Assembly (NCBI GenBank): GCA_963777415.1
Contig: CAVZQL010000009.1
Span: forward strand, 122,457-186,456
Source: an uncultured Acidobacteriota bacterium
GTDB taxonomy: Bacteria; Acidobacteriota; Terriglobia; Terriglobales; Acidobacteriaceae
Length of the DNA: 64,000 nucleotides
Direction of reading: 5' to 3'
The position numbers were made by a program, and so were the translations under genes. The notes below the pieces were generated by a model, which made no database searches, had not been told where the DNA came from, and worked only from the letters and a program-made list of their open reading frames with translations. Positions 1-31,953 of this stretch are shown here, in pieces. Within the stretch, counting starts at the first letter, position 1. The number at the start of each line of letters is the position of its first letter.

Positions 1-620
1 TTGTAGTCATGGGTCATGGTTCCGCAACGCCCCTTCTTCAGCGGCAGGCCGGGTTGAGTGCGGTTCAAGGCCTGAATCTGGGTCTTCTCGTCGACGCATA
101 GAACGATCGCCCGTTCGGGTGGATTCAAGTACAACCCGACGACGTCGGTGAGTTTTTCCAGAAACCTTGGATCACGCGAGAGCTTGAAAGTCTTGCTGCG
201 ATGAGGCTTGAGATTGTGGCTCCGCAAGATGTTATTGACCGTCGACTTGCTCACGCCCTGAGCGGCCGCCAAGGTGCGACAACTCCAATGTGTGCTCCCT
301 TTGGGTCTCGATTGCAGGGTGGTGTCGATGACGGCCTTGACACGGTCCGGGCCGTAGGTCGGCTTGCGTCCGCGGCCCGGTGCGATCTCCCACAACCCCT
401 GTAAGCCTTCCCGCCTAAACCGGTCCCGCCAGAGTCGAACCGTTTTGCGATTGACTTTCAGTGCGACCGCGATCTCCAGCTCGGTTCTGCCGCTGCTCGC
501 GGCCAGCACGATACGGCACCGCAGCGCCACCTGCTGGGGTGTTCCCAGCGCTGCCAGCCATTGCTCGATTTGCTCTTGCTGATGTTGCGAAAGGGAAAGC
601 GGAGGCGAAGGTCGCGGCAT
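1..620 (-). CDS. IS630-family transposase, N-terminal ~206 codons (gene continues past the left edge)
   Basis: Own translation of the minus strand from ATG 620-618: MPRPSPPLSLSQHQQEQIEQWLAALGTPQQVALRCRIVLAASSGRTELEIAVALKVNRKTVRLWRDRFRREGLQGL...STHWSCRTLAAAQGVSKSTVNNILRSHNLKPHR...LNPPERAIVLCVDEKTQIQALNR. Paired HTH modules followed by the start of a DDE domain, as in IS630/Tc1-mariner transposases. Absent from the ORF track because it is open at the window edge. Confidence 0.85.
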   Translation of the reverse strand, partial: MPRPSPPLSLSQHQQEQIEQWLAALGTPQQVALRCRIVLAASSGRTELEIAVALKVNRKTVRLWRDRFRREGLQGLWEIAPGRGRKPTYGPDRVKAVIDTTLQSRPKGSTHWSCRTLAAAQGVSKSTVNNILRSHNLKPHRSKTFKLSRDPRFLEKLTDVVGLYLNPPERAIVLCVDEKTQIQALNRTQPGLPLKKGRCGTMTHDY

Positions 621-675
621 AACTAAGTATGCCGCAGTCCCTTTTATATGTCCATCTATTTGTTGGACACTACAC
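1..675 (-). mobile_element. IS630-family insertion sequence, one terminus only
   Basis: Contains the transposase ORF above. The end is placed by inference near 675 because IS630 elements insert at TA and a TA (676-677) follows ...GGACACTACAC. The other inverted repeat is outside the window, so the boundary is unconfirmed. Confidence 0.4.
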
Positions 676-1538
676 TAGCGCGTTGGATGAAGCTCGTCCA
701 TGCTCGGTTCTGGCTCAGCACGCGAGCAATAGTCGGACGAGAGGCGGCAATAAGACTACTCGGATCGCGCGCCCTTTGTGGGAGGGCGCCGGACGGCACC
801 GATGCTGCATATGATTTGATCTATCCCATTTATGACCCCGTGCTTGAAATGGTGCAACCGGACGAACGCCCCGTGTGCTTCCGTGCGATGGACTGGAAAT
901 TCTCAGACGGCGGTCGCGAACGGTGGCTGCGCGGCAGTGATGCAGAGAGTTGGAGCAACTACCCCGACATGATCAACGACTTCTGTATTGTCGGGGAAAG
1001 GACCTATCTCATCAGACCAGACTGGGAATGGCCCCGAGAGGAGCGCCTTCGGGGGCTATATGACGGAGATGCTACCCGGCTAGAGAAAACCTGCCTCGCT
1101 AGTGGGCACGAGCTTACGCACAGCATGTACCTGGCAGAAGCGTCCCAAGACGATGAGCAGCTGGTGATTTGCAATTCAGAGCGCCAACTGGTTGGCCCTA
1201 TGCATAGGTGGGCCGCAATCAATAGCAGGTTCGCTCGCTCTTTGGGATGGCGGCCTTCGCCGGCAGCACCCTTGGAATGGATTGATGCAGATGGAACGCC
1301 AATGGTCAAATCCGTATTCTGGCGCGATGGCTGGATTGGTCTGGAGCCGCCACACATGGAACCACTTGGGGAGGGTTGGATTGTGCTGGCCTCGAAATCT
1401 GCTGTTGATGTCATCAAAGACCGGCGTCCAAATTGCAAAGTGCACCTTTGGGTCGAACGTCATTCCCACGGGGACCATCCCTACGAACAGTTCTGGCATT
1501 TGAATGAGCACCTCTCCGAAAAGTTCACTAAGGATTGA
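648..1538 (+). CDS. hypothetical protein, first gene of a two-gene cassette; start uncertain (648, ATG 687 or ATG 849)
   Basis: ORF track, 296 aa. I recognise no motif. The first codons lie in the presumed IS630 terminus. The promoter-like site at 794-809 favours ATG 849 (MVQPDERP...). There is a 44-nt gap to the next ORF on the same strand. Confidence 0.5.
   Translation: MSIYLLDTTLARWMKLVHARFWLSTRAIVGREAAIRLLGSRALCGRAPDGTDAAYDLIYPIYDPVLEMVQPDERPVCFRAMDWKFSDGGRERWLRGSDAESWSNYPDMINDFCIVGERTYLIRPDWEWPREERLRGLYDGDATRLEKTCLASGHELTHSMYLAEASQDDEQLVICNSERQLVGPMHRWAAINSRFARSLGWRPSPAAPLEWIDADGTPMVKSVFWRDGWIGLEPPHMEPLGEGWIVLASKSAVDVIKDRRPNCKVHLWVERHSHGDHPYEQFWHLNEHLSEKFTKD
794..809 (+). promoter_or_regulatory. 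sigma-54-type promoter-like site upstream of ATG 849
   Basis: CGGCACCGATGCTGCA; GG and GC are 12 nt apart (GGCAC-N6-TGCA). Predicted start ~820. No upstream palindrome found. Confidence 0.35.
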
Positions 1539-1582
1539 GCGTTAAGTAAACACATGCCTCGTGTTGGGTTTCGACATGGGGC

Positions 1583-4500
1583 TTGACGAAGAGGCGATAC
1601 TACCATGTGATGGATCAGACAACCGTCAGCCCGATTCCAGCTCTGTCTTCACGCCTGCAGCCGTACGATGTCGGCTACACCCTAGGTTGTATAGGAGCAC
1701 TGCAGCTCGTTCCGCGAAACGCCGATCAGGCGATCAGGATTGAGGCACTTGCACATGCAGCGGCATGCGTCACGGCAATCGCCGGCAAACCTAATATTAG
1801 CGCCGGGCGCTTACGGCTGATTTGTGACTCTCCCGAATTGTCGAGTTACTCGTGGGCGGAAGATCCCTGCGACGAAATGTTTGTCGAGGAGATGTCATTC
1901 TTCGGTGGTTCCTACCGCGTGATGCCTGGCATCACGGAAGCCGCAACCTTCATCTTGCAGCATCTATCAAAGGCGATATTTCTCGGGTCTCGTGTATTCG
2001 CGCCCAGAGAATTCGTGCGCGAAGCCCGGCTTCTCTTGGGAACTGCTCTCATAATCAGTGAAGAGGTCTCTAGGCGAGCCGGGCTGGCGATCGGCACACT
2101 CCCGATTGCCGCGTATCGCGAGCCGATCGTAGTACCGGATTCAGCTACTTTGCAAAGGCTTCTCGCCGCCGTCACGTTTACGGAGCAAGACTTACGCGAG
2201 TTACTTTCGCGCGCCCGTATACCTGTAGATGTTATCAATACGTACGTCCTGAACAGCGGCAGCATTCGTCCGGAGCAATTCAGCCCCGACTCTGCTCCAT
2301 TACTGTCGCGGCCACTAGTGCGTGCTAATGACAATCTGATCGCGGTTTGTCCGTCTTCTTTGCTGGCCGCTGCTCGTCACGCACTTATCTTGCACGCACA
2401 GCGGCGTGGCGTTCTCGATCAGCTGTCAGAACGCTATAACGCTGCTGTTTGGGACACGCTCAAGACTTCTCTGTCGCATGTTCAGCATGAACCAGTTCCG
2501 TTTGCACCTCCACCGGGCCTGTCGTACGCAGGTTGGAGGGAAGGTCTCTTTCGTTTCGATACAGACAAGCTGATGTACACCATCTTGGTGACGGACCCGC
2601 TGACGGACTACTCTCCAGATGCGGTCTTCGGTAACTGGAGCGATCCCCAGCTGCACGAGGCATTACAGGGCAGGATTCTAGAGGTCGAGACGCAGATATA
2701 TGGCTCCCTACCTTGGGTTAATGAGGTGTTGTTCCTAGTCAGCATGCAAGGGGTCGGCCGCGCTGGCGTTCTTGGTTTCAGCGAGCTGCCGCGCTACTCC
2801 GAACTCCTTGCCGGTTCTGCAGCACACATAGAAACAATGACGCTGGCCGAAGGGGGCGAGCCCCTCGCCCTGTGGAAGTACGCGCAAGCGCGTCGCATAC
2901 TGCGGGATCGTGCGCGTGTAGTGGTTACTTCTGAGGTGGACGAGTTCCAAATGTACCGATCACACAAGCACTCGTTCTACTTCAGCGACGACGTGATGCC
3001 GAATCTGATCTTTATCCCGCCTGGCGAAGGCGGACCTCTGCGTCGAGACGTCGCCGAGAAGCGAGCGTGGCATACCGTGCCTGCCTACGACCGTGGCTAT
3101 TTCCGCAGAGTAACATCCTTGCATGATACGTCTCAAATTCCAATCTATGTTGCTTATCCCCCAGAGTCGAGGCGGGCGGTACTCCTCGAGGGTCTCCCTG
3201 CATACGTTTGGATCATTGCTCCACGCAACTTACCAGAGAACCATGCGTATTTATCCAAGCTCTATGCCCTCATTCTCGACGGCATTGCATATTGGCTATG
3301 GCAGTTCACCCCGTTTTTGCGGCACCGTCTGGAGCCGCTCGCGGGCGAGGTCGTTCGTCTCGATGTGGAATTGGTTCCTGACGCAAAATGGAACGCCGCG
3401 GGCACGGACGAGCAATACACCACTGACGAATTGGCCCAAGCAGTTAAGGTGTCGACTGATCCAGAATTGCGAACGATTTGCGTGAAAGTTACATCGGCCA
3501 TGACTGAGCTACTGGGCACGGCTGACAATCGTGGCGAACGAGAGTTAATGATCCCGATTGTTCGCGCGTTCAACGACATCGTTCCCGAGGAGCGACGTGC
3601 ACTCCTTACCGAAGGAGAACTAGAAATAGCGGCAGACATTTATGCTCCACTTGGACTCAAGAAGATGCTGCTGTTTCTTAAGTCCGAGAACACTCCTCAA
3701 CTTGATCGCCGGGACATCCCTCGCTATCGTCCTGGGCAAGAAGCTGATGTCAACGTTGTATTGGATAGACTCGGTGCACACCTACGTTCTACCCGGCCAG
3801 TCGGCCCAATACTGCCCGAGGAAACCAATGAGGTGATCAAGCACTCAGTTGCATTCTTCATGGCCGAGCTCGAAACCTTGGTCGCTTCACTCTCTCCCAA
3901 GGGGCTCCTTGAGTACTTGATCCGCCAGCATGAAGCGGTGAGCAGGGAGACCGCGTACTCTCGTCTCACACTCCCAACCAGAATCGCTTGCTACGGCTCC
4001 GTCTCCGACATTCGCAACAAGCTGCAAGAGGAGATTCCTGTTCTCTCGAATGCCGCTCTCGCAGGTCGGTTCCTAATTGAGTTTGTGACGGCTGTGCCGG
4101 CCCGAGGCTATCGCCAGATTTCGTTGTCGTGTTTCGATGAGATGCGCGCGCTGGCCTCACACATAGTGAACGACGGGATGTTAAGTGACCTGGTTCACTT
4201 TGAACTCGCAAAGATGAAACTCTCAATCCTCCCCTCTGGACGACTTGGAATTGATGCAGATGAATACAGGTCTGCGATGGACAGCTATTTGGGTGCGTTC
4301 GCGGCCGAGGAAGTGATCAGAAGCCCGCAAAGTTTCTCACTGTCTTGGCGAGACCGATCTGAGAACAAGAGAACAAATTACCTTAACGCACTTGATGCAG
4401 CGACATCTGCGGAATTTGGCACCTCGATTAGCGAACTGTTGGGATTTCTCACCGCGGTAATGAACATCGGATATCAGATCGGACCCGGTGTGTCCGTATT

Positions 4501-5329
4501 GCGCTTCGAAGATCTAATTGCGGAGCTGCGCAGCCAGACTGGGTTTCCCGAGTCGAACGTCAAGCAATACATCGAGCTGTTTTCGCTTGGCCCGCGTACT
4601 CGGTTCTATGACGTGACTCCACCGCACCGCACTGAAGATGTATATCCTTGGCGATTCAATCGTGAGCTGTCGTACCTGAGGCGACCATTGATACGTCGTC
4701 GTCAGATGGATATCGATGAGGTACTTTGGGGTAACAGGCACGTCGAGGATTCAAAGAAGTACCTCTTTCAACTCTGTACATCTGGTCATCTGCGCCCGAG
4801 AACGCCCGAAATGCGTAGGTTTTCCGGAGATACTCATGACCGCCAAGGCGATGCGTTCAATCATGCAGTGGCAGAGTTCTTCCGTTCGCTACCAGGGATG
4901 GGTGTTTGGCCGAAGTTCAAGAAGTTGAAAACACCACATGGCACGTTACGAGCACCGGGCGATATTGACGTGCTTGCTGCTGACCCCAAGCGCGCGTCGA
5001 TATACCCTGTCGAATGCAAGAGCCTGTCTGCTGCCCGCACTCCTTTTGAGCTCGCAACCGAGATGGAGCAACTGCTGGATGGCACGGGAACGCAACGATC
5101 TATGGTCCAGAAGCACATTCTCCGGGTAGAGTGGTGCCAAGAGCACCTACACGAGCTTCTTGGTGTACTGAATCTCGACAGGTCGTTGCGGTGGAAAATC
5201 GTCCCCTATATTGTCGTCGATCAACCTATGGTGACAGTGCATATGAGAAGAAGTCCAATTCCGATTCTCACGTTCAGTGAAATCAAGGAGAGAATGCAGC
5301 AACTTTCAGAGCAGCGTCTGCGTTCATGA
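1583..5329 (+). CDS. large uncharacterised protein (1248 aa) with C-terminal PD-(D/E)xK nuclease-like motif
   Basis: ORF track; TTG at 1583, first ATG at 1610. The C-terminus reads ...AFNHAVAEFF...GDIDVLAADPKRASIYPVECKS... (nt 4958-5020). This fits the D-x(n)-E-x-K core of restriction-endonuclease-fold/NERD-like domains. No Walker A, DEAD/DExH or other familiar motif seen in the first ~1100 residues. Confidence 0.75.
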   Translation: MTKRRYYHVMDQTTVSPIPALSSRLQPYDVGYTLGCIGALQLVPRNADQAIRIEALAHAAACVTAIAGKPNISAGRLRLICDSPELSSYSWAEDPCDEMFVEEMSFFGGSYRVMPGITEAATFILQHLSKAIFLGSRVFAPREFVREARLLLGTALIISEEVSRRAGLAIGTLPIAAYREPIVVPDSATLQRLLAAVTFTEQDLRELLSRARIPVDVINTYVLNSGSIRPEQFSPDSAPLLSRPLVRANDNLIAVCPSSLLAAARHALILHAQRRGVLDQLSERYNAAVWDTLKTSLSHVQHEPVPFAPPPGLSYAGWREGLFRFDTDKLMYTILVTDPLTDYSPDAVFGNWSDPQLHEALQGRILEVETQIYGSLPWVNEVLFLVSMQGVGRAGVLGFSELPRYSELLAGSAAHIETMTLAEGGEPLALWKYAQARRILRDRARVVVTSEVDEFQMYRSHKHSFYFSDDVMPNLIFIPPGEGGPLRRDVAEKRAWHTVPAYDRGYFRRVTSLHDTSQIPIYVAYPPESRRAVLLEGLPAYVWIIAPRNLPENHAYLSKLYALILDGIAYWLWQFTPFLRHRLEPLAGEVVRLDVELVPDAKWNAAGTDEQYTTDELAQAVKVSTDPELRTICVKVTSAMTELLGTADNRGERELMIPIVRAFNDIVPEERRALLTEGELEIAADIYAPLGLKKMLLFLKSENTPQLDRRDIPRYRPGQEADVNVVLDRLGAHLRSTRPVGPILPEETNEVIKHSVAFFMAELETLVASLSPKGLLEYLIRQHEAVSRETAYSRLTLPTRIACYGSVSDIRNKLQEEIPVLSNAALAGRFLIEFVTAVPARGYRQISLSCFDEMRALASHIVNDGMLSDLVHFELAKMKLSILPSGRLGIDADEYRSAMDSYLGAFAAEEVIRSPQSFSLSWRDRSENKRTNYLNALDAATSAEFGTSISELLGFLTAVMNIGYQIGPGVSVLRFEDLIAELRSQTGFPESNVKQYIELFSLGPRTRFYDVTPPHRTEDVYPWRFNRELSYLRRPLIRRRQMDIDEVLWGNRHVEDSKKYLFQLCTSGHLRPRTPEMRRFSGDTHDRQGDAFNHAVAEFFRSLPGMGVWPKFKKLKTPHGTLRAPGDIDVLAADPKRASIYPVECKSLSAARTPFELATEMEQLLDGTGTQRSMVQKHILRVEWCQEHLHELLGVLNLDRSLRWKIVPYIVVDQPMVTVHMRRSPIPILTFSEIKERMQQLSEQRLRS

Positions 5330-5729
5330 ACCCATAGGTTTGTGACAATGTCAGGCCACCCTTGCCAATGGTCTGTTTTCAACAACTTGCCACGGTGTCT
5401 TCAGGCACGCTTCATGGCCGAAAGCGTCATCGGGGCACTGCAAGATGCTGTTCCGGTCAAGGGCGTGTCGGGTTGATTACCACAGAGTAACTGACGTGTA
5501 GCCCGTTATCCGTCCGGGACATAAAAGTCAATCTGCCGCTCGCAGCGGATCGAACGCTGCAGAAAATCGGCGCGTGCAAGGCCCGCCGGGCGCATCCCGA
5601 GAAAGCGGCGCTCGGATCACGCTACACCGGGCAAGCGCCTCTTCATTTCCACTCCGCTTCAATTCTGTCAGAAGCACTTCCGTCGGTACGCAGCGTCAGA
5701 CGCAAGCGAAGTCGTGATTGAAGGTCGAA

Positions 5730-5747
5730 CCGACCGCCAGTGGGCAG
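5730..5747. promoter_or_regulatory. possible enhancer (UAS) palindrome, weak left half
   Basis: CCGACC-GCCAGT-GGGCAG, 10/12 to CTGCCC-N6-GGGCAG, centred 113 bp upstream of the GG at 5851. Confidence 0.25.
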
Positions 5748-5849
5748 TATGTCCATATACCGGCATCACGATATTAATGCGAAGAACAGGCGCCGCTTGT
5801 AAGCCTCGCTACTGCCGCACCTTGCATGATTCTCTTCCTTTGTTTCATG

Positions 5850-5865
5850 TGGCACATTCCGTGCA
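5850..5865 (+). promoter_or_regulatory. sigma-54-type promoter upstream of the TetR/DksA genes
   Basis: TGGCACATTCCGTGCA (TGGCAC-N5-GTGCA). Predicted start ~5876, leader ~100-160 nt. Confidence 0.6.
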
Positions 5866-5972
5866 ACTACAGAAGATGGGCAGACTGCGGGGTTCCGCAT
5901 TGACTGCCCTGCGATGCAAGCAAATGGCTGACACGGGGCGAAAAGCTTCCGACGGCCACATGAGGCGAATGA

Positions 5973-6695
5973 TTGAAGAACGCCAGCACCCCGACAACGA
6001 AGCGACGACCACCGGCAAGGCTCCACTGTACGCCGGTGCGGAGCAATAGTGCCGATGTAATCCTGTCTGCGGCCAAAGAGCTATTTGCGTCGAAGGGATT
6101 TCAGCAGACATCTATTCGCGACATTTGCAGTGCCGCAGGAATTACCCGACCGGTTCTGTACTACTTTTATAAAAACAAAATAGGTCTGTTTCGGGCCGTG
6201 ATGGATAAAGCTCGCCAGCACTTCGCCGAGTACTTTGTTTCGGCAGCCCAAGAGCACCCGCACTTCCGTCAGCAATGTGTTCACCTCACGAGACTGCTCT
6301 TCCATGACGCAGTGAAGAACCCACAGATGTGGCGATTGATGTTACTTAGCGTGTGGTTCGGGGCCACGCCAGCCTGCGATGAACTGCGTGAGTTGCGCGA
6401 AAACATGGTCGGGGTATTGATGCCCGAAAGCAGAAACTTCAGCTCTAGAAACTGCGATCCGCGTGTCAAGGCGGCAGCTTATGCCTATGCCGGCAGCGTG
6501 TCGCTCATGATAGCCAGATATCTGAACACTGGCGAGCCCGACATTTCAAACGTCCAAGCCGAGAGCCTGGTTGCTTCGCTGTTTGACGGGTGCGCAGGTT
6601 TCGCAGCTGGACATGGCTCCTCCTCCACGTCAACAGACAACAAAGGCCAACTCGGCAAGGTTCGCCCCGCTAAGAAAGGACGTCCTCGGCGATAA
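5973..6695 (+). CDS. TetR/AcrR family transcriptional regulator (start may be GTG 6036)
   Basis: N-terminal HTH signature ILSAAKELFASKGFQQTSIRDICSAAGITRPVLYYFYKNKIGLF. Track start 5973 is TTG. GTG at 6036 lies ~10 codons before the HTH, as is usual for TetR proteins. Confidence 0.85.
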   Translation: MKNASTPTTKRRPPARLHCTPVRSNSADVILSAAKELFASKGFQQTSIRDICSAAGITRPVLYYFYKNKIGLFRAVMDKARQHFAEYFVSAAQEHPHFRQQCVHLTRLLFHDAVKNPQMWRLMLLSVWFGATPACDELRELRENMVGVLMPESRNFSSRNCDPRVKAAAYAYAGSVSLMIARYLNTGEPDISNVQAESLVASLFDGCAGFAAGHGSSSTSTDNKGQLGKVRPAKKGRPRR

Positions 6696-6712
6696 CGCCA
6701 ATCGAGGCACTT

Positions 6713-7129
6713 ATGAACAGACGAACTAGCAACATGACCCGATCCCTGCAACACGAGCATTTGCGTGACAGGCTGCGTCACGAAGGCGCTCATCTGCGCA
6801 GTGCATTGAGCGAGGCAGAAGCTCGCTTGAGACAACTGAATGCAACCGATGTGTCGCAGGCAGACGAAACACTGACCAACTGCGATTTGGAATACCTGAC
6901 CAACGCCTACAACCGGCAACGAGAACGGCTCCAGTCGATAGTAGAAAGCCTGGAGCGAATCGAAGAGGGAACGTTCGGCCTGTGTGTCGGCTGCGATGAG
7001 CCGATCGGGGAGAAGCGACTCAAAGCTATGCCGTCGGCCAGATTCTGCATTTCCTGCCAGGAAGAACTGGAGCAGGGTGCGCGCTACCCGGTCGCGTCGG
7101 GAAATGCGTTACTGTCCAGAACATTTTAG
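6713..7129 (+). CDS. DksA/TraR family C4-type zinc-finger protein
   Basis: C-terminal CVGCDEPIGEKRLKAMPSARFCISC (CxxC-N17-CxxC) preceded by a coiled-coil region, the DksA/TraR architecture. Confidence 0.8.
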   Translation: MNRRTSNMTRSLQHEHLRDRLRHEGAHLRSALSEAEARLRQLNATDVSQADETLTNCDLEYLTNAYNRQRERLQSIVESLERIEEGTFGLCVGCDEPIGEKRLKAMPSARFCISCQEELEQGARYPVASGNALLSRTF

Positions 7130-7157
7130 TGCTCGCATCTGTTGCGGAGTTGTAAAG

Positions 7158-7661
7158 ATGGACGCTTTCTTGATCAGCATTCTTCTGTCGGGCGTGGCGA
7201 TGGTTTTATGTCTCTTCTTCAGCGAGCGGATTCGTCCCAGCCCCTCATCATCGTTGCGCGATTTCAGCCGCGCGTCGAGAGAGCTTGAGGGGGTGCTCGA
7301 AGTGATGCTGCCGTTGCCGCACCCGGCCGATGCGCTTCAGCCCGACCAGGCGCTCATTTGGAGTACTCAGATTCCGGCACTTCGATTCGTTAGCGACCGC
7401 GAACCACGAGGTGCTTATTACACGCCATTAAGACTCATATACATCGAGTCTGCGCGCCGCTATCCCGAAATCTACGACGGTTGCACTTTTCAGAACTGGG
7501 TGGAGTTTTACGTCCGCCGGGGGCTGCTTCACTTTGAAGATGATGCGATACATATCACAGCCGCCGGCCGTGAACTGCTTGGGATGTTGGAACGCAGCAC
7601 ACCGAGTGAGTCTGCGGCGCAGGCGCATCTCGGAACCCGGCCGAATACACGCCTTCGCTGA
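7158..7661 (+). CDS. hypothetical membrane-anchored protein
   Basis: Internal ATG of track ORF 6984-7661. MDAFLISILLSGVAMVLCLFF is a single N-terminal TM helix. The upstream part of the track ORF overlaps the DksA-like gene out of frame. Confidence 0.5.
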   Translation: MDAFLISILLSGVAMVLCLFFSERIRPSPSSSLRDFSRASRELEGVLEVMLPLPHPADALQPDQALIWSTQIPALRFVSDREPRGAYYTPLRLIYIESARRYPEIYDGCTFQNWVEFYVRRGLLHFEDDAIHITAAGRELLGMLERSTPSESAAQAHLGTRPNTRLR

Positions 7662-7700
7662 CCTTTTTCACTCTTCACTTGCGTTCTTGCCATCCATGCG

Positions 7701-7718
7701 GTGCCCCAACATGGGCAT
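7701..7718. promoter_or_regulatory. putative enhancer (UAS) palindrome
   Basis: GTGCCC-CAACAT-GGGCAT (10/12), 90 bp upstream of the GG at 7799. Confidence 0.6.
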
Positions 7719-7797
7719 CCGCCCTGCGACGGGCGCAGGTTGCGAGCACAGCGTTGTACAAACGTCTGCGTTGGAATGAGTTACGGGAAGAGGCGAG

Positions 7798-7813
7798 TGG
7801 CAGAGCGTATGCA
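7798..7813 (+). promoter_or_regulatory. sigma-54-type promoter of the Spy/CpxP-like gene
   Basis: TGGCAGAGCGTATGCA. Palindrome GTGCCC-CAACAT-GGGCAT is centred 90 bp upstream of the GG. Confidence 0.7.
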
Positions 7814-7901
7814 CACCATTGTCAGGGATCAGTTACGCACCTGTGGTCGCGGTCACGGGCGGGCGTGCCGACCAGGAGTTTTGAGAAAGAGAGTAGCTCA
7901 T

Positions 7902-8480
7902 ATGAAGCGCTGGATAGTTAGTTTGTTCTTGATCGTTGTTGCAGGTTCAGTGGCGGCAGGGGCACGGGACCATGCCGGTAAGGGTATTTCGAACACGGTG
8001 GTCGCGACCGATGCGGAGAGTGCAGTGGTTCCTAATCTCCCGCCGGCCTCCGCTGAAACAGAGCGCAAGCTACAGGACACACAGGAAAATGCGGAGATGC
8101 AGGTGGATAACGCCCTGGCGATCGTTGTACCGCTTCCACCATTTCCAGCCGATGCCGATGAGCAATTGGTGCAGGATCTCGGACTGAGTCCGGCCCAGAT
8201 CACGGCAATGAAGGCACAAGTGGAAGAGGAGCGCAGGAAGTCGCAGCCGCTGATCGAGGACATCACCAGGATCGAGCGTCGCCTTGTCGCCATCACGCTG
8301 AACGGGAAGTTCGACGAGAAAGAGGTCCGGGAACTCGCAGAGAACGAAGCACACATACTGCAGGAGCTCATCATCTGTAATGTCCGACTCGAGACGGAAC
8401 TCTATAAAATGCTTACCGATCCGCAGCGCCGGCGGATTGATGAACTTCGTGTACAGGCGATAGTTTCGGGCAGGCAGTAG
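7902..8480 (+). CDS. Spy/CpxP-family periplasmic chaperone-like protein (LTxxQ motif)
   Basis: Signal peptide MKRWIVSLFLIVVAGSVAAGA; helical E/Q/R-rich body with LTDPQRRRIDEL. The promoter-like site at 7798-7813 lies inside the longer 259-aa track ORF, so the start is moved to ATG 7902. Confidence 0.65.
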   Translation: MKRWIVSLFLIVVAGSVAAGARDHAGKGISNTVVATDAESAVVPNLPPASAETERKLQDTQENAEMQVDNALAIVVPLPPFPADADEQLVQDLGLSPAQITAMKAQVEEERRKSQPLIEDITRIERRLVAITLNGKFDEKEVRELAENEAHILQELIICNVRLETELYKMLTDPQRRRIDELRVQAIVSGRQ

Positions 8481-8524
8481 TGCCACTCGGCGTGGTTTAT
8501 GTTCTTCGGGGTACAGGACGAGAA

Positions 8525-8552
8525 GGCACGCGGGTACTTACATCTGCGTGCC
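8525..8552. terminator. possible hairpin between convergent Spy-like and activator genes
   Basis: GGCACGC-N14-GCGTGCC. Poor T-tract (CCTTTCC), so the call is weak. Confidence 0.3.
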
Positions 8553-8591
8553 CCTTTCCGAAAGAGTTTGCATAGCCGGTGCGGCGCGGAG

Positions 8592-10655
8592 TTAGTAATC
8601 AGCCCTTGTGATGTTTAGGCGCCGCATCTTGTTCTGTAGGGTAGTCCGCTTGAGTCCGAGGCGCTCTGCGGCGCCTCCGTTTCCGGAGATCCGCCCTGAA
8701 GCCGCCTTGAGGGCGGAGACGATGGCCTGGCGCTCGGCGTCATGGAAGCTGGAAACGAGTTCCGCGCCACGCCCACTGGTTTTACTGAGTTCTGACAGCG
8801 GAACATTCAACTCTTCGCCTTGCGTCAGAATGACAGCTCGCTCAACGAAGTTCTCCAATTCGCGAATGTTGCCCGGCCACGGCGCATTTGCCAGTGCTTC
8901 CATCGCATGCTTGGGGATGGACTTGATGCGTTTTTGCATTCGACGGGCCAATCGCGACACGAAGAAATGGACGAGAAGAGGGATATCCTCGCGACGTTCA
9001 CGAAGCGGGGGGATCTCGATAGGGAACACATTCAGCCGGTAGAACAAATCTTCGCGAAACTGGTTCTCACGGATCATCGCGTGAAGGTCACGATGGGTAG
9101 CAGTGATCAAGCGAACGTCAACGCTGATAGTCCTCCCGCTGCCCAGGCGCTCGAACTCTCGTTCCTGCAATGCTCGCAGTAGCTTCGGCTGTAATTCGAG
9201 GCTGATGTCGCCGATCTCGTCCAGGAACAGCGAGCCGTGGTCGGCCAACTCGAAGCGACCACGTTTCTGCATGAGCGCACCGGTGAATGCGCCTTTCTCG
9301 TGGCCAAACAGTTCGCTCTCCACCAGACCGGAAGGAATCGCTGCACAGTTGAGCCTGACGAAAGTTCGGTCTTTTCTGGGACTCAGACTGTGGATCGCAC
9401 GCGCGATCAGTTCCTTTCCGGTGCCGGTCTCGCCGTGGAGCAAGACCGTGGATGAAGTCGGAGCCACGATAGAGATCTGGTCCAGCACTTTGCGCAGCGC
9501 CGCGCTCTTCCCGACGATGTCTTCGAAGTTGTATTCAGAACGGATTTCCGATTCGAGGTACAGGCGCTCTTCTTCAAGGCGGTGTTTGGAGGCGTTCAGT
9601 CGGCCGAACGCGATCGCGTTCTCCATCGACAAAGCGATCTGGCTGCTGATCTGCGACAACAAGTCCAGATCTGCCTGCCGGAAGCTGTCTGGGTGACGAC
9701 TGCCCATGGTGATCACGCCCAGTGGGCCATTAGCCGTCGCAAGCGGAGCTAGTGCGATCGTCCTGATGGATTCAGCTTCCAACGGTTTACGGAACAGCGA
9801 TGGAAGGTTCTCAATACCATCGCTCGACAGAATTTCATGAGTTCGAGCGCGCATCTTTTCCATATCCTCATCGGTGATCTCCGATACGGGTAGGTCGGCG
9901 AGGAACCCCCTGCTGCTGGGGAAGTCCATGCTGGCGCACTCGAGCTTGTTCGATTCCTTGTCGATGATCCAAAAGCCGGTGAAGTCATTGGCGAAGTATT
10001 TTCGCAACGAAGATGAAGCCGAACAAAACAGCTCGTTCATGTCCAACTTCGAAACAACGTAGTTGTTGATCTCGAGAAGCAGCTTGAGGCGATCACGCTC
10101 CTGCGCGAGTTGGCGCTCGTACGCTCCCGCCGTGTCGATGGCGACGGCACTCTCGATGGCAAGCGCGACGTGCGAGGCCATCGAAGTCATCAGTTCCACT
10201 TCTTCGTCCGTGAACCGTCTCTTTTCAGCGCTGCCAAAGACCAAGGCCCCGAGTCTTCTTCGATGGGTCGAGATCGGGAACAAACACATACTTTGCAGTT
10301 CAACCAGAGGCACACGCGACCGCAGCTCTGGGATTTTCAGCAGTTCGCTTCTCGGGTCGTCGATGAATGCCGGCGTCTGCTCGTCGATTGCACGTCCGAG
10401 TGCCGTACCCGAAAGGGTGATTCGGGGGCTTGGGTTCGGGAGATCGGGAAGGTCGGGAGAACCGTCGAATGCGACGATTCGAGCAGAGCCGGACTGTGAC
10501 TCCAGCAGGAGGAGAGCGGCCAGATCAAAAACGATCACCTGGGATAGAAGCTTGCGCAAGCTGTGCAGGACCGCTTCAACGGTCGGTTGCTCTGCTACAG
10601 TGCTGGATACATCAAGTAAAGTCCGGTAGCGTTCTTCGGTTGCGATGGTCATCAT
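8592..10655 (-). CDS. sigma-54-dependent transcriptional activator, GAF-GAF-AAA+-Fis HTH (FhlA-like architecture)
   Basis: [15 protein letters not shown] (Walker A), [15 protein letters not shown] (GAFTGA sigma-54 contact loop), C-terminal [26 protein letters not shown]. About 380 N-terminal residues have two GAF-like regions. Confidence 0.9.
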   Translation of the reverse strand: MMTIATEERYRTLLDVSSTVAEQPTVEAVLHSLRKLLSQVIVFDLAALLLLESQSGSARIVAFDGSPDLPDLPNPSPRITLSGTALGRAIDEQTPAFIDDPRSELLKIPELRSRVPLVELQSMCLFPISTHRRRLGALVFGSAEKRRFTDEEVELMTSMASHVALAIESAVAIDTAGAYERQLAQERDRLKLLLEINNYVVSKLDMNELFCSASSSLRKYFANDFTGFWIIDKESNKLECASMDFPSSRGFLADLPVSEITDEDMEKMRARTHEILSSDGIENLPSLFRKPLEAESIRTIALAPLATANGPLGVITMGSRHPDSFRQADLDLLSQISSQIALSMENAIAFGRLNASKHRLEEERLYLESEIRSEYNFEDIVGKSAALRKVLDQISIVAPTSSTVLLHGETGTGKELIARAIHSLSPRKDRTFVRLNCAAIPSGLVESELFGHEKGAFTGALMQKRGRFELADHGSLFLDEIGDISLELQPKLLRALQEREFERLGSGRTISVDVRLITATHRDLHAMIRENQFREDLFYRLNVFPIEIPPLRERREDIPLLVHFFVSRLARRMQKRIKSIPKHAMEALANAPWPGNIRELENFVERAVILTQGEELNVPLSELSKTSGRGAELVSSFHDAERQAIVSALKAASGRISGNGGAAERLGLKRTTLQNKMRRLNITRADY

Positions 10656-10747
10656 GTCTTTTTTTTGAAATCACTTCCCAAATAGCCGGCTAGAAACAGC
10701 ATACCTTTCAGTACACAGCACGTCCTTGGCTAACATCCGCAATGACC

Positions 10748-11338
10748 TCAGTTGCACACCGCAGCGTAAGCACAGCACTCTACGAGCATCTGACAATACA
10801 TCGATTCCAGGCACTCAAGGGCAGCGCAGTAGGCTGCTTCGACTGCAGTGCTGCTGACGCCCAGCAACAGAGCAGCTCCAAGCAAGGTACACTTTTCGAC
10901 GCCGCACAAGATCAGGGCGAAACGGGAGAGGATATCCAACCGCATCTCAAGCGCGTCGGAATTTTGAATTAAAGAGTCGAGGAGATCGCCAGCAACTTGT
11001 GGATGACATCGATGAGCGCACGTGCGGCGTTCGTAACTGACAGCTAGTTCTGAAATGCGCCATTGCCGGATCTCGATTGCTGACCTGATAGTAGCGACGC
11101 GCGTCCAGCGTATAAGCCCCTTTTGAAGTACCTGGTCTTGTGCGGTCGCGATATCCACGCTTGCGCTGCCGGATGCGTCGATGACGCAAGCCTCTGCCAC
11201 CTCATCATTACCGGTCAGAAATCCAGCAAGCCACCTGAGTTCGTCCCGATACGACTTGAACGCTCCGCTGATTTCTTCTGCTGTGGCTACCTTCGAAAAG
11301 ATCTCGTCTAATCCGACGGTAATGACTTCGGTTTTCAT
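10748..11338 (-). CDS. divergent ECF-type sigma-factor-like protein, paralog 1 (Cys-rich C-terminus)
   Basis: YRDELRWLAGFLTGNDEVAEACVIDA resembles ECF region 2.1/2.2. WTRVATIRSAIEIRQ resembles region 2.3/2.4. RLDILSRFALILCGVEKCTLLGAALLLGVSSTAVEAAYCAALECL resembles the region 4 HTH. Clear paralogs at 47422-48012 and 57658-58239. Confidence 0.55.
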   Translation of the reverse strand: MKTEVITVGLDEIFSKVATAEEISGAFKSYRDELRWLAGFLTGNDEVAEACVIDASGSASVDIATAQDQVLQKGLIRWTRVATIRSAIEIRQWRISELAVSYERRTCAHRCHPQVAGDLLDSLIQNSDALEMRLDILSRFALILCGVEKCTLLGAALLLGVSSTAVEAAYCAALECLESMYCQMLVECCAYAAVCN

Positions 11339-11364
11339 AAATGACCCTTCCCACCATAAGCCAC

Positions 11365-11380
11365 AGCAAAACCAGTGCCA
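11365..11380 (-). promoter_or_regulatory. sigma-54 promoter of ECF-like paralog 1 (and probably the downstream GAF activator gene)
   Basis: The minus strand reads TGGCACTGGTTTTGCT, a full TGGCAC-N5-TTGC consensus. Predicted start ~16 nt before ATG 11338. Confidence 0.8.
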
Positions 11381-11453
11381 AATGTCCCGCTGCCGTTATG
11401 TCGCTGATTTTCAAGGAACGTCGCGGCAGGTCAGGCACCGGGCGTCTGCCCAA

Positions 11454-11471
11454 CTGCCCATATGCAGGCAC
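11454..11471. promoter_or_regulatory. putative enhancer (UAS) palindrome
   Basis: CTGCCC-ATATGC-AGGCAC (10/12), 84 bp upstream of the minus-strand GG at 11378-11379. A second CTGCCCA copy lies immediately 5-prime (11446-11452). Confidence 0.5.
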
Positions 11472-11645
11472 CACAGTCTCCGAGAACGGATTGACGACCT
11501 CTGCGCATTGTCAAACAGTGGCGCGGTCAGGCTTCTTCCTTCAGGAGAGTGCCCTTTTACAGGCAGCGCGCAAGCACGTCCCATGGGCCAGACTGCCCCG
11601 CACCAAGCACTTAAGGCCGCATTGCGGTTCGGTACTCGACGTTGT

Positions 11646-11663
11646 CTGCCCGTATTTCGGCAC
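11646..11663. promoter_or_regulatory. putative enhancer (UAS) palindrome
   Basis: CTGCCC-GTATTT-CGGCAC (10/12), 74 bp upstream of the GG at 11728. Confidence 0.45.
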
Positions 11664-11726
11664 CGGGACTATGTGCGGCCACAACGTCTAAGTCGTGTTT
11701 TCAAGTAGTTGCCAGAAGTGCCCGAT

Positions 11727-11742
11727 TGGCAAGCGATATGCA
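11727..11742 (+). promoter_or_regulatory. sigma-54-type promoter of the TolC-MFP-RND operon
   Basis: TGGCAAGCGATATGCA. Predicted start ~36 nt before ATG 11789 (GAGG RBS in the leader). Confidence 0.65.
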
Positions 11743-11788
11743 CTAGCGAAGCTCCGTATAGCACGACATTGGTTCAGCTGAGGTTGAA

Positions 11789-13147
11789 ATGAAAGCCAAG
11801 CATTTTCTCTTGATCTTGATGTTTGCGATTGCCGTTCCTGGGATTTCGCAGGGGCAGTCGCAAGCATCTCCGCCGGCATCCGAACCGCCACTGCTCACGA
11901 TGGATGATGCAGTCTCTCTCGCCGTGAAGAATAACCGCCTGGTGAAGAACTCTGCGCTGGAAGCGCAGAAGTTCGACTTCCGACTAGCCACTGCACGCAC
12001 TCGGCGGTTGCCCAATATGCAATTTGCGGTTTTAGGCGGCGAGTTGCTGCAGCCATTTGACTACACGTTCAACAAAGGTGCGTTTGGAACGTTTTCCAGC
12101 ACGGGGCCGATACCGGCGAGCGATACCAAGATCCACAACCCGGCAACCTTTACGGCGTACATAAATGGCGGAATAACCGAACCCCTTTTGCAGCAATACA
12201 AGATTGGACTTGGGATCCGTGCAACGGAGATCGGAAAACAGATCGCTCGTGAAGATGTCCGCGCCGAACGCATTAAAGTCGCCGCCGAAGTCCGTACCGC
12301 CTACTTCCAGATGGTCGCCACACAGGCGGGCGTGGAGGCAGCGCGTGAACAGGTGAAGACGCTGAAAGAGGCACAGCGGGTCACGTCTGAGTACAGGGCG
12401 CAACAAGCAGTGCTCCGCGCCGACGCCCTGGACGTCGATGCACGTCTGGCCAAGAGCGTGTACGAGCTGTCGACGGTGGAAAATGGACTCGCAACACAGC
12501 GCGAATACTTGAATCAACTGTTGGGGCGCGATCTAACAACGCAGTTCCGCGTTGACGAAACACCTGAAAACGAGGCGCCGGACATGAATCTCGCAGCGGC
12601 GCGCCAGCAAGCTCTGGGAAACCGTCCTGAGATCCGGCAAGCGCACCTCAAGGAGAAGCAGGCGGAATACGATCGCCGTATCGCCAAAGCGGACTACCTT
12701 CCCGACCTCAGCCTGGCCGTGCAGTACCTCGGAGTGCAAAACGTTCAGGTGCTACCCGCAAATGTCGCAGTAGCCGGATTCCTTTTGACGTGGGAGCCCT
12801 TCGATTGGGGACGTAAACGCAACAACGTCGCCGAGAAGGCAAAGACCGTGGAACAGGCCCGCAATGGGGCACAAGAGACAGAGTCGATGATCGCGGTGGA
12901 AGTCGGAATGAAGTATCGCAAGTGGCAGGAGGCTGCGTTGCTGCTCAAGGCGTCTCGCATTTCGCAGCAGGCGTCGGCGGAGAAGTTCCGGGTGACCGGC
13001 AACAAGTACAAGGAGCAGGCAGCGCTCATAAAGGATCTGCTGCAGGCGCAGGCGCAGAGCGCAGAGGCTGGCTATAAGTATCAGCAGGCACTCTCCTCCT
13101 ACTGGAGTGCTTTTGCGGAATTACGTCGGGCGATGGGAGAAGAGTGA
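11789..13147 (+). CDS. TolC-family outer-membrane efflux protein
   Basis: Signal peptide MKAKHFLLILMFAIAVPGISQG; two-repeat coiled OEP pattern (LTMDDAVSLAVKNN...). First gene of an efflux triad. Confidence 0.85.
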   Translation: MKAKHFLLILMFAIAVPGISQGQSQASPPASEPPLLTMDDAVSLAVKNNRLVKNSALEAQKFDFRLATARTRRLPNMQFAVLGGELLQPFDYTFNKGAFGTFSSTGPIPASDTKIHNPATFTAYINGGITEPLLQQYKIGLGIRATEIGKQIAREDVRAERIKVAAEVRTAYFQMVATQAGVEAAREQVKTLKEAQRVTSEYRAQQAVLRADALDVDARLAKSVYELSTVENGLATQREYLNQLLGRDLTTQFRVDETPENEAPDMNLAAARQQALGNRPEIRQAHLKEKQAEYDRRIAKADYLPDLSLAVQYLGVQNVQVLPANVAVAGFLLTWEPFDWGRKRNNVAEKAKTVEQARNGAQETESMIAVEVGMKYRKWQEAALLLKASRISQQASAEKFRVTGNKYKEQAALIKDLLQAQAQSAEAGYKYQQALSSYWSAFAELRRAMGEE

Positions 13148-13148
13148 G

Positions 13149-25465: not shown

Positions 25466-25481
25466 TGCAGGTGATGTGCCA
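25466..25481 (-). promoter_or_regulatory. sigma-54-type promoter of glgP
   Basis: The minus strand reads TGGCACATCACCTGCA. Palindrome CTGCCG-CAATGC-GGGCGG is centred 92 bp upstream. Confidence 0.7.
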
Positions 25482-29897: not shown

Positions 29898-29913
29898 TGC
29901 AGGTGTCGTGCCG
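29898..29913 (-). promoter_or_regulatory. sigma-54-type promoter of the orphan receiver gene
   Basis: The minus strand reads CGGCACGACACCTGCA, almost the same as the glgP site. Leader ~67 nt. Confidence 0.55.
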
Positions 29914-31162: not shown

Positions 31163-31178
31163 TGGCACTCCCTGTGCA
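31163..31178 (+). promoter_or_regulatory. sigma-54-type promoter of the secreted-protein gene 31209-31853
   Basis: TGGCACTCCCTGTGCA. Leader ~20 nt containing GAGGAG. Confidence 0.7.
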
Positions 31179-31923: not shown

Positions 31924-31953
31924 TCCGGCCCTTTCGGCCGCAAAGGTGCGAAA

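What the first reader, a model, noticed from the sequence alone, without database searches (positions are those of the whole stretch)
648..5329. IS630-flanked two-gene cassette: unknown 230-296-aa protein plus 1248-aa protein ending in a PD-(D/E)xK nuclease-like domain (candidate defence or conflict system)
Directly next to a truncated IS630 element lie two co-directional genes separated by 44 nt. I recognise nothing in either except one feature: the C-terminus of the large protein carries AVAEFF...GDIDVLAADPKRASIYPVECKS (nt 4958-5020). This is the D...E-x-K core of restriction-endonuclease-fold (NERD/Cap4/Shedu-like) effectors. The preceding ~1100 residues lack P-loop, helicase or methylase signatures.

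By eye this stretch is lower in GC (several 60-nt lines at 45-55%) than the efflux and kinase regions (~60%). It is followed by ~400 bp of non-coding DNA.

A very large sensor-like protein with a C-terminal nuclease, a small partner, and a mobile-element neighbour are typical of antiphage or abortive-infection modules. I cannot assign this cassette to any named system.

Counter-indication: a sigma-54-like site at 794-809 may tie it to host regulation.
Basis: partly seen in the sequence, partly recalled or inferred. Interest (0 to 1): 0.72.

Follow-up and report, generated by a model that had tools for sequence, protein, structure and literature searches.

The report
Upx defence gene beside broken Avs gene
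The large gene is an intact but distant member of the known single-protein anti-phage nuclease family Upx, and its supposed small partner is only the tail of a neighbouring giant Avs-type defence gene cut off by an IS630 insertion, so this is a known kind of defence locus and not a new two-gene system.

Summary
The reading as an unnamed two-gene cassette does not hold.

ORF2 (nt 1610/1583-5329) belongs to the Upx family. It hits the PADLOC Upx model (8e-48), the NCBIfam Upx model (6e-54, far below the equivalog cutoff) and the solved SeUpx sequence 9wuf (2e-30). Its AlphaFold model matches 9wuf over the whole length (Foldseek E 6e-44, TM 0.68). The catalytic D...ExK residues are invariant or nearly so in its clade.

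Upx is a published single-protein defence system. It senses the phage large terminase and acts through a C-terminal PD-(D/E)xK nuclease.

ORF1 is not a gene. Homology begins at a CTAG at nt 675-678, so its ATG and first ~9 codons come from the IS630 end. The rest is the last ~287 codons of a ~2000-aa Avs1/Avs3-like STAND NTPase. That protein is one uninterrupted ORF in 10 of 10 genomes tested.

The closest relatives (87% nt identity) carry the intact Avs-like gene and no Upx. None of 80 Upx-clade loci has an ORF1 homologue.

Verdict: a decaying defence island with a new member of a known family. Interest is low to moderate.

The parts
1..676 (-). Right-hand part of an IS630-family insertion sequence. 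The transposase N-terminal 206 codons are at nt 620->3 on the minus strand and run off the window edge. The IS end sequence is at about 621-676.
   Evidence: NCBIfam NF033545 transpos_IS630 at 124.6 bits (cutoff 100), profile positions 2-177 of 299. Pfam HTH_32, HTH_23 and HTH_29. Homology to uninterrupted relatives of the neighbouring gene starts at the CTAG at 675-678, which fits a TA-target IS630 insertion. The Logan contig L001 of the same sequence breaks at about nt 650, as expected at a repeat.
648..676 (+). Fortuitous ATG and first ~9 codons of 'ORF1'. They are supplied by the IS630 end and are not part of the ancestral gene.
   Evidence: No relative aligns with residues 1-6. DNA alignment with L100, L101 and L102 shows no similarity left of about nt 675.
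677..1538 (+). 3' remnant (last ~287 codons plus stop) of a ~2000-aa Avs1/Avs3-like STAND NTPase defence gene. It covers the end of the helical repeats and the beta-rich C-terminal sensor domain. It is inferred to be a pseudogene fragment.
   Evidence: The 90%-identity cluster of ORF1 holds a 1755-aa fused NTPase-sensor protein, and the P0022 cluster holds a 2009-aa one. The whole protein is a single ORF of 2006-2065 codons in 10 of 10 genome loci. The parent proteins hit PADLOC and NCBIfam Avs1b (1.4e-21 to 6e-14) and Pfam AAA_22. The model of the C-terminal 491 aa matches only Avs3-terminase 8dgc (E 3e-6, prob 1.0). L101-L103 are 87% identical in DNA over nt 680-1612.
795..809 (+). Sigma-54-type -24/-12 core (GGCACCGATGCTGCA) inside the remnant. 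Probably fortuitous.
   Evidence: The motif is found. The closest homologous DNA reads GGTACGGGTGACGCA, so it is not conserved.
1539..1609 (+). 3' flank of the Avs-like gene. It is shared with relatives that lack Upx, and similarity fades at about 1613-1620.
   Evidence: blastn and MAFFT alignment with L101 and L102.
1610..5329 (+). Intact Upx-family gene (1239 aa from ATG 1610; 1248 aa if TTG 1583 is used). N-terminal sensor domain, middle domain and C-terminal PD-(D/E)xK nuclease.
   Evidence: PADLOC Upx 8e-48. NCBIfam Upx_antiphage 6e-54. phmmer against 9wuf 1.8e-30, with N- and C-terminal stretches both aligned. Precomputed Pfam PF28173 Upx-like. AF2 model with pLDDT 80.5 and pTM 0.75. Foldseek against 9wuf: E 5.6e-44, TM 0.68/0.68.
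4958..5023 (+). Catalytic core of the PD-(D/E)xK nuclease. In 1248-aa numbering: GDID with D1127 and D1129 (D1129 at nt 4967-4969, equivalent to SeUpx D1161), E1144 (5012-5014, SeUpx E1176) and K1146 (5018-5020, SeUpx K1178).
   Evidence: Residue-level alignment to 9wuf. Clade conservation: D 14/14, D 14/14, E 13/14, K 14/14. Mutating E1176/K1178 abolishes SeUpx defence (PMC13099982, PMC13601566).
5330..5972 (.). 643-nt spacer between Upx and a TetR-family regulator gene (5973-6695). It carries a second sigma-54-type core at 5851-5865 (+).
   Evidence: ORF list. TetR_N hit. Motif search. No Rfam hit. No terminator-like site in this stretch.

Best explanation
The left edge of the window is the end of a defence island. 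It holds two separate single-protein phage sensors in tandem on the + strand.

1. An Avs1/Avs3-like STAND NTPase of about 2000 aa. An IS630-family element inserted at a TA in its coding sequence (nt ~676). Only the last ~287 codons remain in view. Together with ~9 codons of IS-end sequence they mimic a 296-aa ORF.

2. An intact, divergent Upx gene (nt 1610-5329).

Inferred mechanism, taken from characterised Upx homologues: the large N-terminal and middle region of the monomeric protein binds a phage protein. Evans et al. 2026 identify this as the ATPase domain of the large terminase in a partly unfolded state. Binding releases the C-terminal Mg-dependent PD-(D/E)xK nuclease (D1129/E1144/K1146 here). 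The nuclease degrades DNA and stops the infection, probably at the cost of the cell.

Shown here: family membership by sequence and fold, conservation of the catalytic residues, absence of a conserved partner gene, the truncated state of ORF1, and the variable presence of Upx at this site.

Inferred: the trigger, the nuclease substrate, that the gene is expressed, and that the Avs-like gene is inactive.
For: Upx identity. 9wuf is the only significant PDB fold match, at E 5.6e-44 and TM 0.68 over about 1200 residues.

Catalytic residues.

Single-gene nature: none of 80 metagenomic Upx-clade loci, nor L002 or L099, carries an ORF1-family gene. The literature also describes Upx as a single-gene system (PMC13099982).

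ORF1 as an Avs remnant:
- Homology starts at residue 7-10.
- Fused relatives of 1755 and 2009 aa exist.
- The protein is a single ORF in 10 of 10 genomes.
- The parent proteins hit Avs1b.
- The only fold match is Avs3-terminase 8dgc.

IS630.

Variable presence: L101-L103 share 87% nt identity from nt 680 to about 1612 and have no Upx beyond that point.

Mechanism: SeUpx, HpUpx and PbUpx are activated by diverse large terminases, and E1176A abolishes both defence and toxicity (PMC13601566). The SeUpx CTD is a Mg-dependent nuclease (PMC13099982). Evans et al. also report that Upx is sometimes next to an Avs1 variant. In my loci, giant STAND-like proteins abut Upx in L039 and L067.
Against: - Identity to SeUpx is only about 18%, and the NCBIfam equivalog cutoff (1900 bits) is far from met (182.7 bits). 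Function and trigger are therefore extrapolated across a large distance. The tested homologues HpUpx and SeUpx share only 16% identity and behave alike.
- The two Upx papers disagree on the trigger (gp16 or terminase) and on whether the N-terminal domain is a second nuclease.
- The positions matching the SeUpx N-terminal 'catalytic' residues D122, D127 and E147 are S, S and K here and vary across the clade. The dual-nuclease part of the model probably does not apply.
- The DNA to the left of the IS630 lies outside the window. I could not show that the 5' 85% of the Avs-like gene is there, nor see the second TA.
- No promoter for Upx was identified.
Confidence: 0.85

Rival explanations
1. One reading: ORF1 and ORF2 are a true two-gene defence or conflict operon, with a small partner regulating or sensing for a large nuclease effector.
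For: The ORFs are co-directional and 44-71 nt apart. ORF1 is an open frame of 296 codons whose sequence is strongly conserved.
Against: - ORF1's relatives are the C-terminus of a ~2000-aa protein.
- The ORF1 start lies in IS-derived sequence.
- The two families do not co-occur in 15 genome loci or 80 metagenome loci.
- The nearest Upx relatives (L099, L002) have no ORF1 homologue, and the nearest ORF1 relatives (L100-L103) have no Upx.
Confidence: 0.03
2. The remnant is still expressed, from the IS-supplied ATG or by read-out from the IS. It has gained a new role as a free Avs sensor domain, for example a terminase-binding module that modulates the neighbouring terminase sensor Upx.
For: The remnant frame has no stop or frameshift and keeps the whole confidently modelled beta-rich C-terminal domain. 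Both parent families are reported to be terminase sensors (PMC13601566).
Against: - An intact frame is what a recent insertion would leave anyway.
- No forward sigma-70-like promoter was found, and the sigma-54-like site is not conserved.
- The same arrangement was not seen anywhere else.
- The only other copy of this exact sequence that could be retrieved, the Logan contig L001, shows the same state and breaks at the IS, so it says nothing about selection.
Confidence: 0.04
3. ORF2 has the Upx fold but is used for something other than phage defence, for example a housekeeping DNA-repair nuclease.
For: It shares only 18% identity with the tested protein. The genes to its right are ordinary chromosomal genes: TetR, DksA-like, RND efflux, PFK.
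Against: - It is absent at this site in the closest relatives.
- The family is patchily spread across phyla and sometimes occurs in tandem or next to STAND giants.
- It sits beside another defence gene and an IS, and its GC is slightly low.
- Three homologues as divergent as this one all respond to terminase.
Confidence: 0.06

Closest known systems
Upx (SeUpx, Salmonella enterica NCTC6026; PDB 9wuf; PADLOC PDLC02221; NCBIfam NF042954; Pfam PF28173 Upx-like)
   Same: - Similar length: 1239-1248 aa against 1272 aa.
- No NTPase domain.
- Whole-length fold match (TM 0.68, E 5.6e-44).
- C-terminal PD-(D/E)xK core with D...ExK in the same positions.
- No conserved partner gene.
- Accessory distribution.
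   Different: - About 18% identity, and far below the NCBIfam equivalog cutoff.
- The N-terminal residues reported as a second nuclease site in SeUpx (D122, D127, E147) are S, S and K here and are not conserved in this clade.
- The host is an uncultured environmental bacterium.
- No experiment has been done on this protein.
HpUpx and PbUpx, the divergent Upx homologues tested by Evans et al. 2026 (PMC13601566)
   Same: They show that Upx proteins sharing only about 16% identity still sense phage large terminase and need the ExK glutamate. PbUpx comes from Pyrinomonadaceae, an environmental lineage; several relatives of the flanking Avs-like gene found here are from Acidobacteriota MAGs.
Avs1/Avs3 (AVAST type 1 and 3 STAND NTPases; SeAvs3-terminase complex, PDB 8dgc)
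   Same: The parent family of ORF1 has an N-terminal endonuclease-like effector, a STAND P-loop NTPase that hits the Avs1b profiles, long helical repeats, and a C-terminal region whose only PDB fold match is Avs3 bound to terminase. Its total length of about 2000 aa is close to the Avs1b profile length of 1924-1931.
   Different: - Profile scores are far below the Avs1b cutoffs (50-74 bits against 1500).
- There is no sequence-level PDB hit.
- TM to 8dgc is low (0.23).
- Only the last ~15% of the gene is present in the window.
- I could not check whether this is the 'split-TPR Avs1 variant' that Evans et al. found next to Upx, because their supplement is not held.
IS630-family insertion sequences
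   Same: The transposase matches NF033545 above its cutoff. The junction lies at a CTAG/TA, the usual IS630 target.
   Different: Only about 676 nt of the element are in the window. The inverted repeats and the second target copy were not seen.

Membership tests
Upx | Whole-length tripartite fold (N-terminal domain, middle domain, C-terminal domain) as in the cryo-EM structure 9wuf | tested here: met
   The AF2 model of residues 49-1248 has pLDDT 80.5 and pTM 0.75. Foldseek against 9wuf gives E 5.6e-44, prob 1.0 and TM 0.68/0.68 over 1297 columns. The next best hit has E 1e-2.
Upx | C-terminal PD-(D/E)xK nuclease with catalytic D1161, E1176 and K1178 (SeUpx numbering) | tested here: met
   These align with D1129, E1144 and K1146. 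Conservation in the clade is 14/14, 13/14 and 14/14.
Upx | Significant match to the family's sequence profiles | tested here: met
   PADLOC Upx 8e-48. NCBIfam Upx_antiphage E 6e-54. phmmer against 9wuf 1.8e-30. Precomputed Pfam PF28173 Upx-like.
Upx | NCBIfam equivalog-level score (at least 1900 bits), meaning orthology to SeUpx-type proteins | tested here: not met
   The score is 182.7 bits. This protein is a distant family member and not an equivalog.
Upx | Large sensor region without a STAND or P-loop NTPase | tested here: met
   No Pfam family at E<=1. PADLOC returns only Upx.
Upx | Single-gene system with no conserved partner | tested here: met
   0 of 80 metagenome loci, plus L002 and L099, have an ORF1-family neighbour. 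Occasional neighbours are a second Upx or unrelated STAND giants.
Upx | N-terminal 'minimal nuclease' residues D122, D127, R129, E147 and D173, reported for SeUpx by Zhou et al. 2026 | tested here: not met
   The aligned residues are S, S, R, K and E, and the columns vary across the clade. This rests on a sequence alignment. The feature is disputed as a family trait, because Evans et al. treat this region as a sensor.
Upx | Anti-phage activity and toxicity triggered by phage large terminase that depends on the ExK motif | not testable with these tools
   This needs expression and phage or terminase challenge. It is inferred only from homologues (PMC13601566).
Avs1/Avs3-like AVAST (parent gene of ORF1) | STAND P-loop NTPase core matching Avs profiles | tested here: met
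   Tested in the relatives P0071, P0076 and the large protein of L003. PADLOC Avs1b gives 1.4e-21 to 1.7e-14, NCBIfam Avs1b gives 6e-14, and Pfam gives AAA_22 and AAA_16. All scores are far below the equivalog cutoff. This part of the gene is absent from the window.
Avs1/Avs3-like AVAST (parent gene of ORF1) | C-terminal sensor structurally like the terminase-binding sensor of Avs3 | tested here: inconclusive
   8dgc_A and 8dgc_B are the only significant matches (E 3e-6, prob 1.0). However, TM is 0.23 and the model has pLDDT 70.
Avs1/Avs3-like AVAST (parent gene of ORF1) | Complete gene with effector, NTPase and sensor present at this locus | tested here: not met
   Only the last ~287 codons are present. 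tblastn with the 1508-aa N-terminal part finds nothing in the window.
IS630 family | DDE transposase matching the family model above its cutoff | tested here: met
   NF033545 at 124.6 bits against a cutoff of 100. The match is N-terminal only because the window edge cuts the gene.
IS630 family | Terminal inverted repeats and TA target duplication | tested here: inconclusive
   The junction falls at the CTAG at 675-678. The other end of the element is outside the window, and there is no second copy in the window.
   0 of 15 genome loci of the ORF1 family have Upx within 10 kb. 0 of 80 Upx loci have the ORF1 family.
   ORF2 has no Pfam hit, and its only PADLOC hit is Upx. It shares only the general PD-(D/E)xK superfamily fold.

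The most novel reading that the evidence does not exclude
The IS630 insertion created a new stand-alone gene. The IS end supplies an ATG, and perhaps outward transcription, to the last ~287 codons of a terminase-sensing Avs-like protein. The freed sensor domain would then work together with, or tune, the adjacent terminase sensor Upx. That would be a new two-component arrangement built from two known single-protein systems.
Probability: 0.03. Interest if true: 0.6.

Novelty: new member of a known kind. Interest (0 to 1): 0.2.

Why it matters
The locus shows how the raw sequence misleads at one point. A well-conserved 296-codon 'gene' next to a giant nuclease looks like a two-gene defence cassette. 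It is in fact a fragment produced by an IS insertion, and annotators should not treat it as a partner gene.

Biologically it is a small example of turnover in a defence island. Two phage sensors sit in tandem, a Upx and an Avs1/Avs3-like protein whose relatives in other bacteria are reported to sense terminase. One has been knocked out by a transposon, and the other is variably present between close relatives.

One observation bears on a current disagreement in the Upx literature. In this clade the C-terminal D...ExK is invariant or nearly so. The N-terminal residues proposed as a second nuclease site in SeUpx are not conserved. This argues that the N-terminal region is a sensor across the family and not a conserved nuclease.

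Tried and rejected
- Pfam on both ORFs returned nothing. The local Pfam copy lacks PF28173.
- PDB sequence search, PADLOC, NCBIfam and Pfam with ORF1 and with its 489-491-aa relatives returned nothing. Identity came only from genomic context, cluster membership and fold search.
- I first read the ORF1 family as the second gene of a 'split' Avs pair, based on L003. I rejected that: 10 of 10 other genome loci have one uninterrupted ORF. L003, L007, L012 and L100 are shifted in frame, either as pseudogenes or as assembly errors.
- I tried to recover the window's own 222-kb contig to see the DNA left of the IS. The look-up of encoding contigs returned only a 4.8-kb Logan contig that breaks at the IS, and the genome scan did not contain this genome.
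- I tried to fix the right border of the Upx insertion from the downstream DNA of L101-L103. None of that DNA is in the window.
- Repeats flanking Upx: only short chance-level matches. Rfam on nt 1-8000: nothing. tRNAs: none in the window.
- My first sigma-54 pattern search used the wrong spacing. I repeated it correctly.
I modelled residues 49-1248 instead.
- Viral contigs: only 4 relatives, so the clade is not mainly phage-borne.
- I ran no further search on finding the host taxon, because it would not change the conclusion.
Full report
**Observation.** The ORF scan confirms two co-directional ORFs, 648-1538 (296 aa) and 1583-5329 (1248 aa from TTG). A database entry identical in sequence starts at ATG 1610 and has 1239 aa.

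On the minus strand at nt 3-620 lies the N-terminal 206 codons of an IS630-family transposase. It scores 124.6 bits against NF033545 (cutoff 100) and covers profile positions 2-177 of 299. It also has HTH_32, HTH_23 and HTH_29 domains. The window edge cuts it, so it is not shown to be truncated, and there is no IS on the other side of the two ORFs.

The GC dip is real but small. ORF2 is 54.3% against a window mean of 57.2%, the 5th lowest of 242 windows of the same size. The non-coding stretch after ORF2 is 643 nt (5330-5972) and ends at a TetR-family gene.

**What ORF2 is.** Pfam found nothing. ORF2 does hit the Upx model of PADLOC (8e-48) and of NCBIfam (6e-54; 182.7 bits, far below the 1900-bit equivalog cutoff). 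It also hits the sequence of PDB 9wuf, the cryo-EM structure of Salmonella Upx, at E 1.8e-30. Both an N-terminal stretch (32-283) and a C-terminal stretch (759-1191) align.

All 15 database homologues carry the precomputed Pfam family PF28173 'Upx-like'. An AlphaFold2 model of residues 49-1248, built on 14 sequences, has pLDDT 80.5 and pTM 0.75. Its only significant PDB match is 9wuf, over the whole length: E 5.6e-44, TM 0.68/0.68, 18% identity. The next hit has E 1e-2.

The catalytic residues of SeUpx (D1161, E1176, K1178) align with D1129, E1144 and K1146. In the clade these are conserved 14/14, 13/14 and 14/14. ORF2 is therefore a distant but full-length member of the Upx family.

**What is known about Upx.** Zhou et al. 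2026 (PMC13099982) describe it as a single-gene, monomeric defence protein. It has an N-terminal domain, a middle domain and a C-terminal canonical PD-(D/E)xK domain that is a Mg-dependent nuclease. They also propose a second, minimal nuclease site in the N-terminal domain and activation by phage protein gp16.

Evans et al. 2026 (PMC13601566) report different findings. Three homologues sharing as little as 16% identity are triggered by diverse phage large terminases, through the ATPase domain. E1176A abolishes both defence and toxicity, and gp16 is not an activator in their screen. They also find the family (2093 sequences, 895 clusters) across many bacterial and archaeal phyla. It is sometimes next to a second Upx or to a 'split-TPR variant' of Avs1.

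**What ORF1 is.** ORF1 has about 50 homologues at 50-79% identity with no annotation. All of them align only from ORF1 residue 7-10 onward, and many extend 60-200 residues further upstream.

In 13 of 15 genome loci, and in L003, the homologous region follows a ~1500-aa protein directly. That protein hits Avs1b in PADLOC and NCBIfam. It also hits AAA_22 and AAA_16 in Pfam and an N-terminal endonuclease effector model.

ORF1's own 90%-identity cluster holds a 1755-aa protein that carries the NTPase, the helical repeats and the ORF1 region in one chain. The cluster of P0022 holds a 2009-aa fused form. In 10 of 10 genome loci checked, the whole protein is one uninterrupted ORF of 2006-2065 codons. 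The apparent splits in L003, L007, L012 and L100 are frame shifts.

A model of the C-terminal 491 residues has a helical-repeat half and a confident beta-rich domain. Its only significant PDB matches are the two chains of Avs3 bound to phage terminase (8dgc; E 3e-6, prob 1.0, but TM only 0.23).

DNA alignment with the intact relatives places the start of homology at the CTAG at nt 675-678, a typical IS630 TA target. The ATG at 648 and the first ~9 codons are therefore IS-end sequence. ORF1 is the last ~287 codons of a ~2000-aa Avs1/Avs3-like gene interrupted by the IS630.

**Is the pair a unit?** No.
- None of the 15 genome loci of the Avs-like family has a Upx within 10 kb.
- None of 80 metagenomic loci of this Upx clade has an ORF1-family sequence.
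- The closest Upx relatives (L099 at 59%, L002 at 50%) have unrelated upstream genes.
- The closest relatives of the ORF1 DNA (L101-L103, 87% nt identity) carry the intact Avs-like gene. They share its 3' flank with the window up to about nt 1612-1620, exactly where the Upx ORF begins. Beyond that they continue into unrelated DNA without Upx.

Upx is thus variably present at this site. Giant STAND-like proteins do abut Upx in a few other loci: L039 with a 30-nt gap and L067 upstream, and L078/L079 downstream. Tandem Upx pairs also occur in L058, L066 and L074. This fits the loose association reported by Evans et al., meaning co-location in a defence island and not an operon.

**Surroundings.** To the right are ordinary chromosomal genes. 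They include TetR, a DksA/TraR-type zinc finger, an LTXXQ protein, a sigma-54 activator and an RND efflux pump. Further on come HtrA, phosphofructokinase, glycogen phosphorylase and a 1954-aa PAS histidine kinase. The defence genes therefore sit at the edge of an island that extends leftward out of the window. No tRNA, no Rfam family in nt 1-8000 and no meaningful repeats around Upx were found.

**The sigma-54-like site.** GGCAC-N6-TGCA occurs 6 times in the window against 0.78 expected, so the host probably uses such promoters. The copy at 795-809 lies inside the coding remnant and is not conserved in the closest homologous DNA, so it is probably fortuitous. Another copy at 5851-5865 lies in the spacer upstream of the TetR gene.

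**Mechanism (inferred).** By homology, the N-terminal and middle regions act as a sensor that binds a phage protein. The best supported candidate is the large terminase ATPase domain. Binding frees the C-terminal PD-(D/E)xK nuclease, which then degrades DNA and aborts the infection.

The positions equivalent to the proposed N-terminal nuclease residues of SeUpx (D122, D127, R129, E147, D173) are S, S, R, K and E here, and they vary across the clade. I therefore do not expect a second nuclease activity in this protein. This rests on a sequence alignment anchored by the conserved G-x-Y-R-V segment.

**Novelty and score.** This is a new, divergent member of a family that is named, structurally solved and mechanistically studied. 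It lies next to a transposon-inactivated member of another known defence class. The 'two-gene cassette of an unnamed system' was not. Interest is 0.2. The main value is the corrected annotation, the example of defence-island decay, and the conservation argument against a family-wide N-terminal nuclease.

Noticed in passing
window 795-809, 5851-5865, 25466-25480(-), 29898-29912(-), 31164-31178, 53863-53877(-): The sigma-54-type -24/-12 core GGCAC-N6-TGCA occurs 6 times against 0.78 expected from shuffles. The window also encodes at least two sigma-54 activators, at 8592-10655(-) and 38900-40306. The copy at 5851-5865 sits about 110 nt upstream of the TetR-family gene.
   Followed up: partly
P0052 (315 aa, on a 284-kb ENA contig); no locus fetched: This protein joins a sigma-54 activator fragment (PF00158) to the last ~100 residues of the Avs-like C-terminal domain, at 61% identity to ORF1. 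It looks like another truncated remnant of the same Avs-like family fused by rearrangement.
   Followed up: no
L058 10001-17444, L074 10001-17444, L066 6729-14062: Two Upx-clade genes lie in tandem, each about 35% identical to the window protein. This matches the 'second Upx' association mentioned by Evans et al.
   Followed up: partly
L039 3413-9892 (Upx at 9923-13741); L067 244-6735 (Upx at 7434-11162); L078 9622-16158 and L079 4376-10912 (downstream of Upx): Giant proteins of 2160-2180 aa sit directly next to Upx on the same strand. Those of L039 and L067 have a Walker A motif and weak similarity to the Avs-like NTPase. L039 hits PADLOC Avs1b at 1e-4. None has the ORF1-type C-terminus.
   Followed up: partly
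L101 1188-2081 and 2093-7360: In the closest full-length relative of the Avs-like gene, the N-terminal effector region is a separate 297-aa ORF just upstream of the 1755-aa NTPase-sensor ORF. An SSB gene lies further upstream. I did not resolve whether this is a true split or a frameshift.
   Followed up: no
L003 ~7947-8262, L007 ~6678-7418, L012 ~8384-8411, L100 ~782-817: The Avs-like gene changes reading frame within the coding sequence in these four loci. Ten other loci have a single ORF. These are either pseudogenes or indel errors in assemblies. They explain why databases list many 250-490-aa 'proteins' of this family.
   Followed up: partly
window 1886-2071 (ORF2 residues ~102-163): The residues aligned with the proposed N-terminal nuclease site of SeUpx (D122, D127, R129, E147, D173) are S, S, R, K and E. 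They vary across 14 clade members, unlike the invariant or nearly invariant C-terminal D...ExK.
   Followed up: yes
L104-L107 (IMG/VR contigs): Only four viral or prophage contigs out of 2.9 million encode a relative of this Upx clade. One (L104) is 36% identical over the full length.
   Followed up: no
window 31912-37776: A 1954-aa sensor histidine kinase has Reg_prop/Y_Y_Y propeller repeats and at least six PAS domains. It is unrelated to the finding.
   Followed up: no
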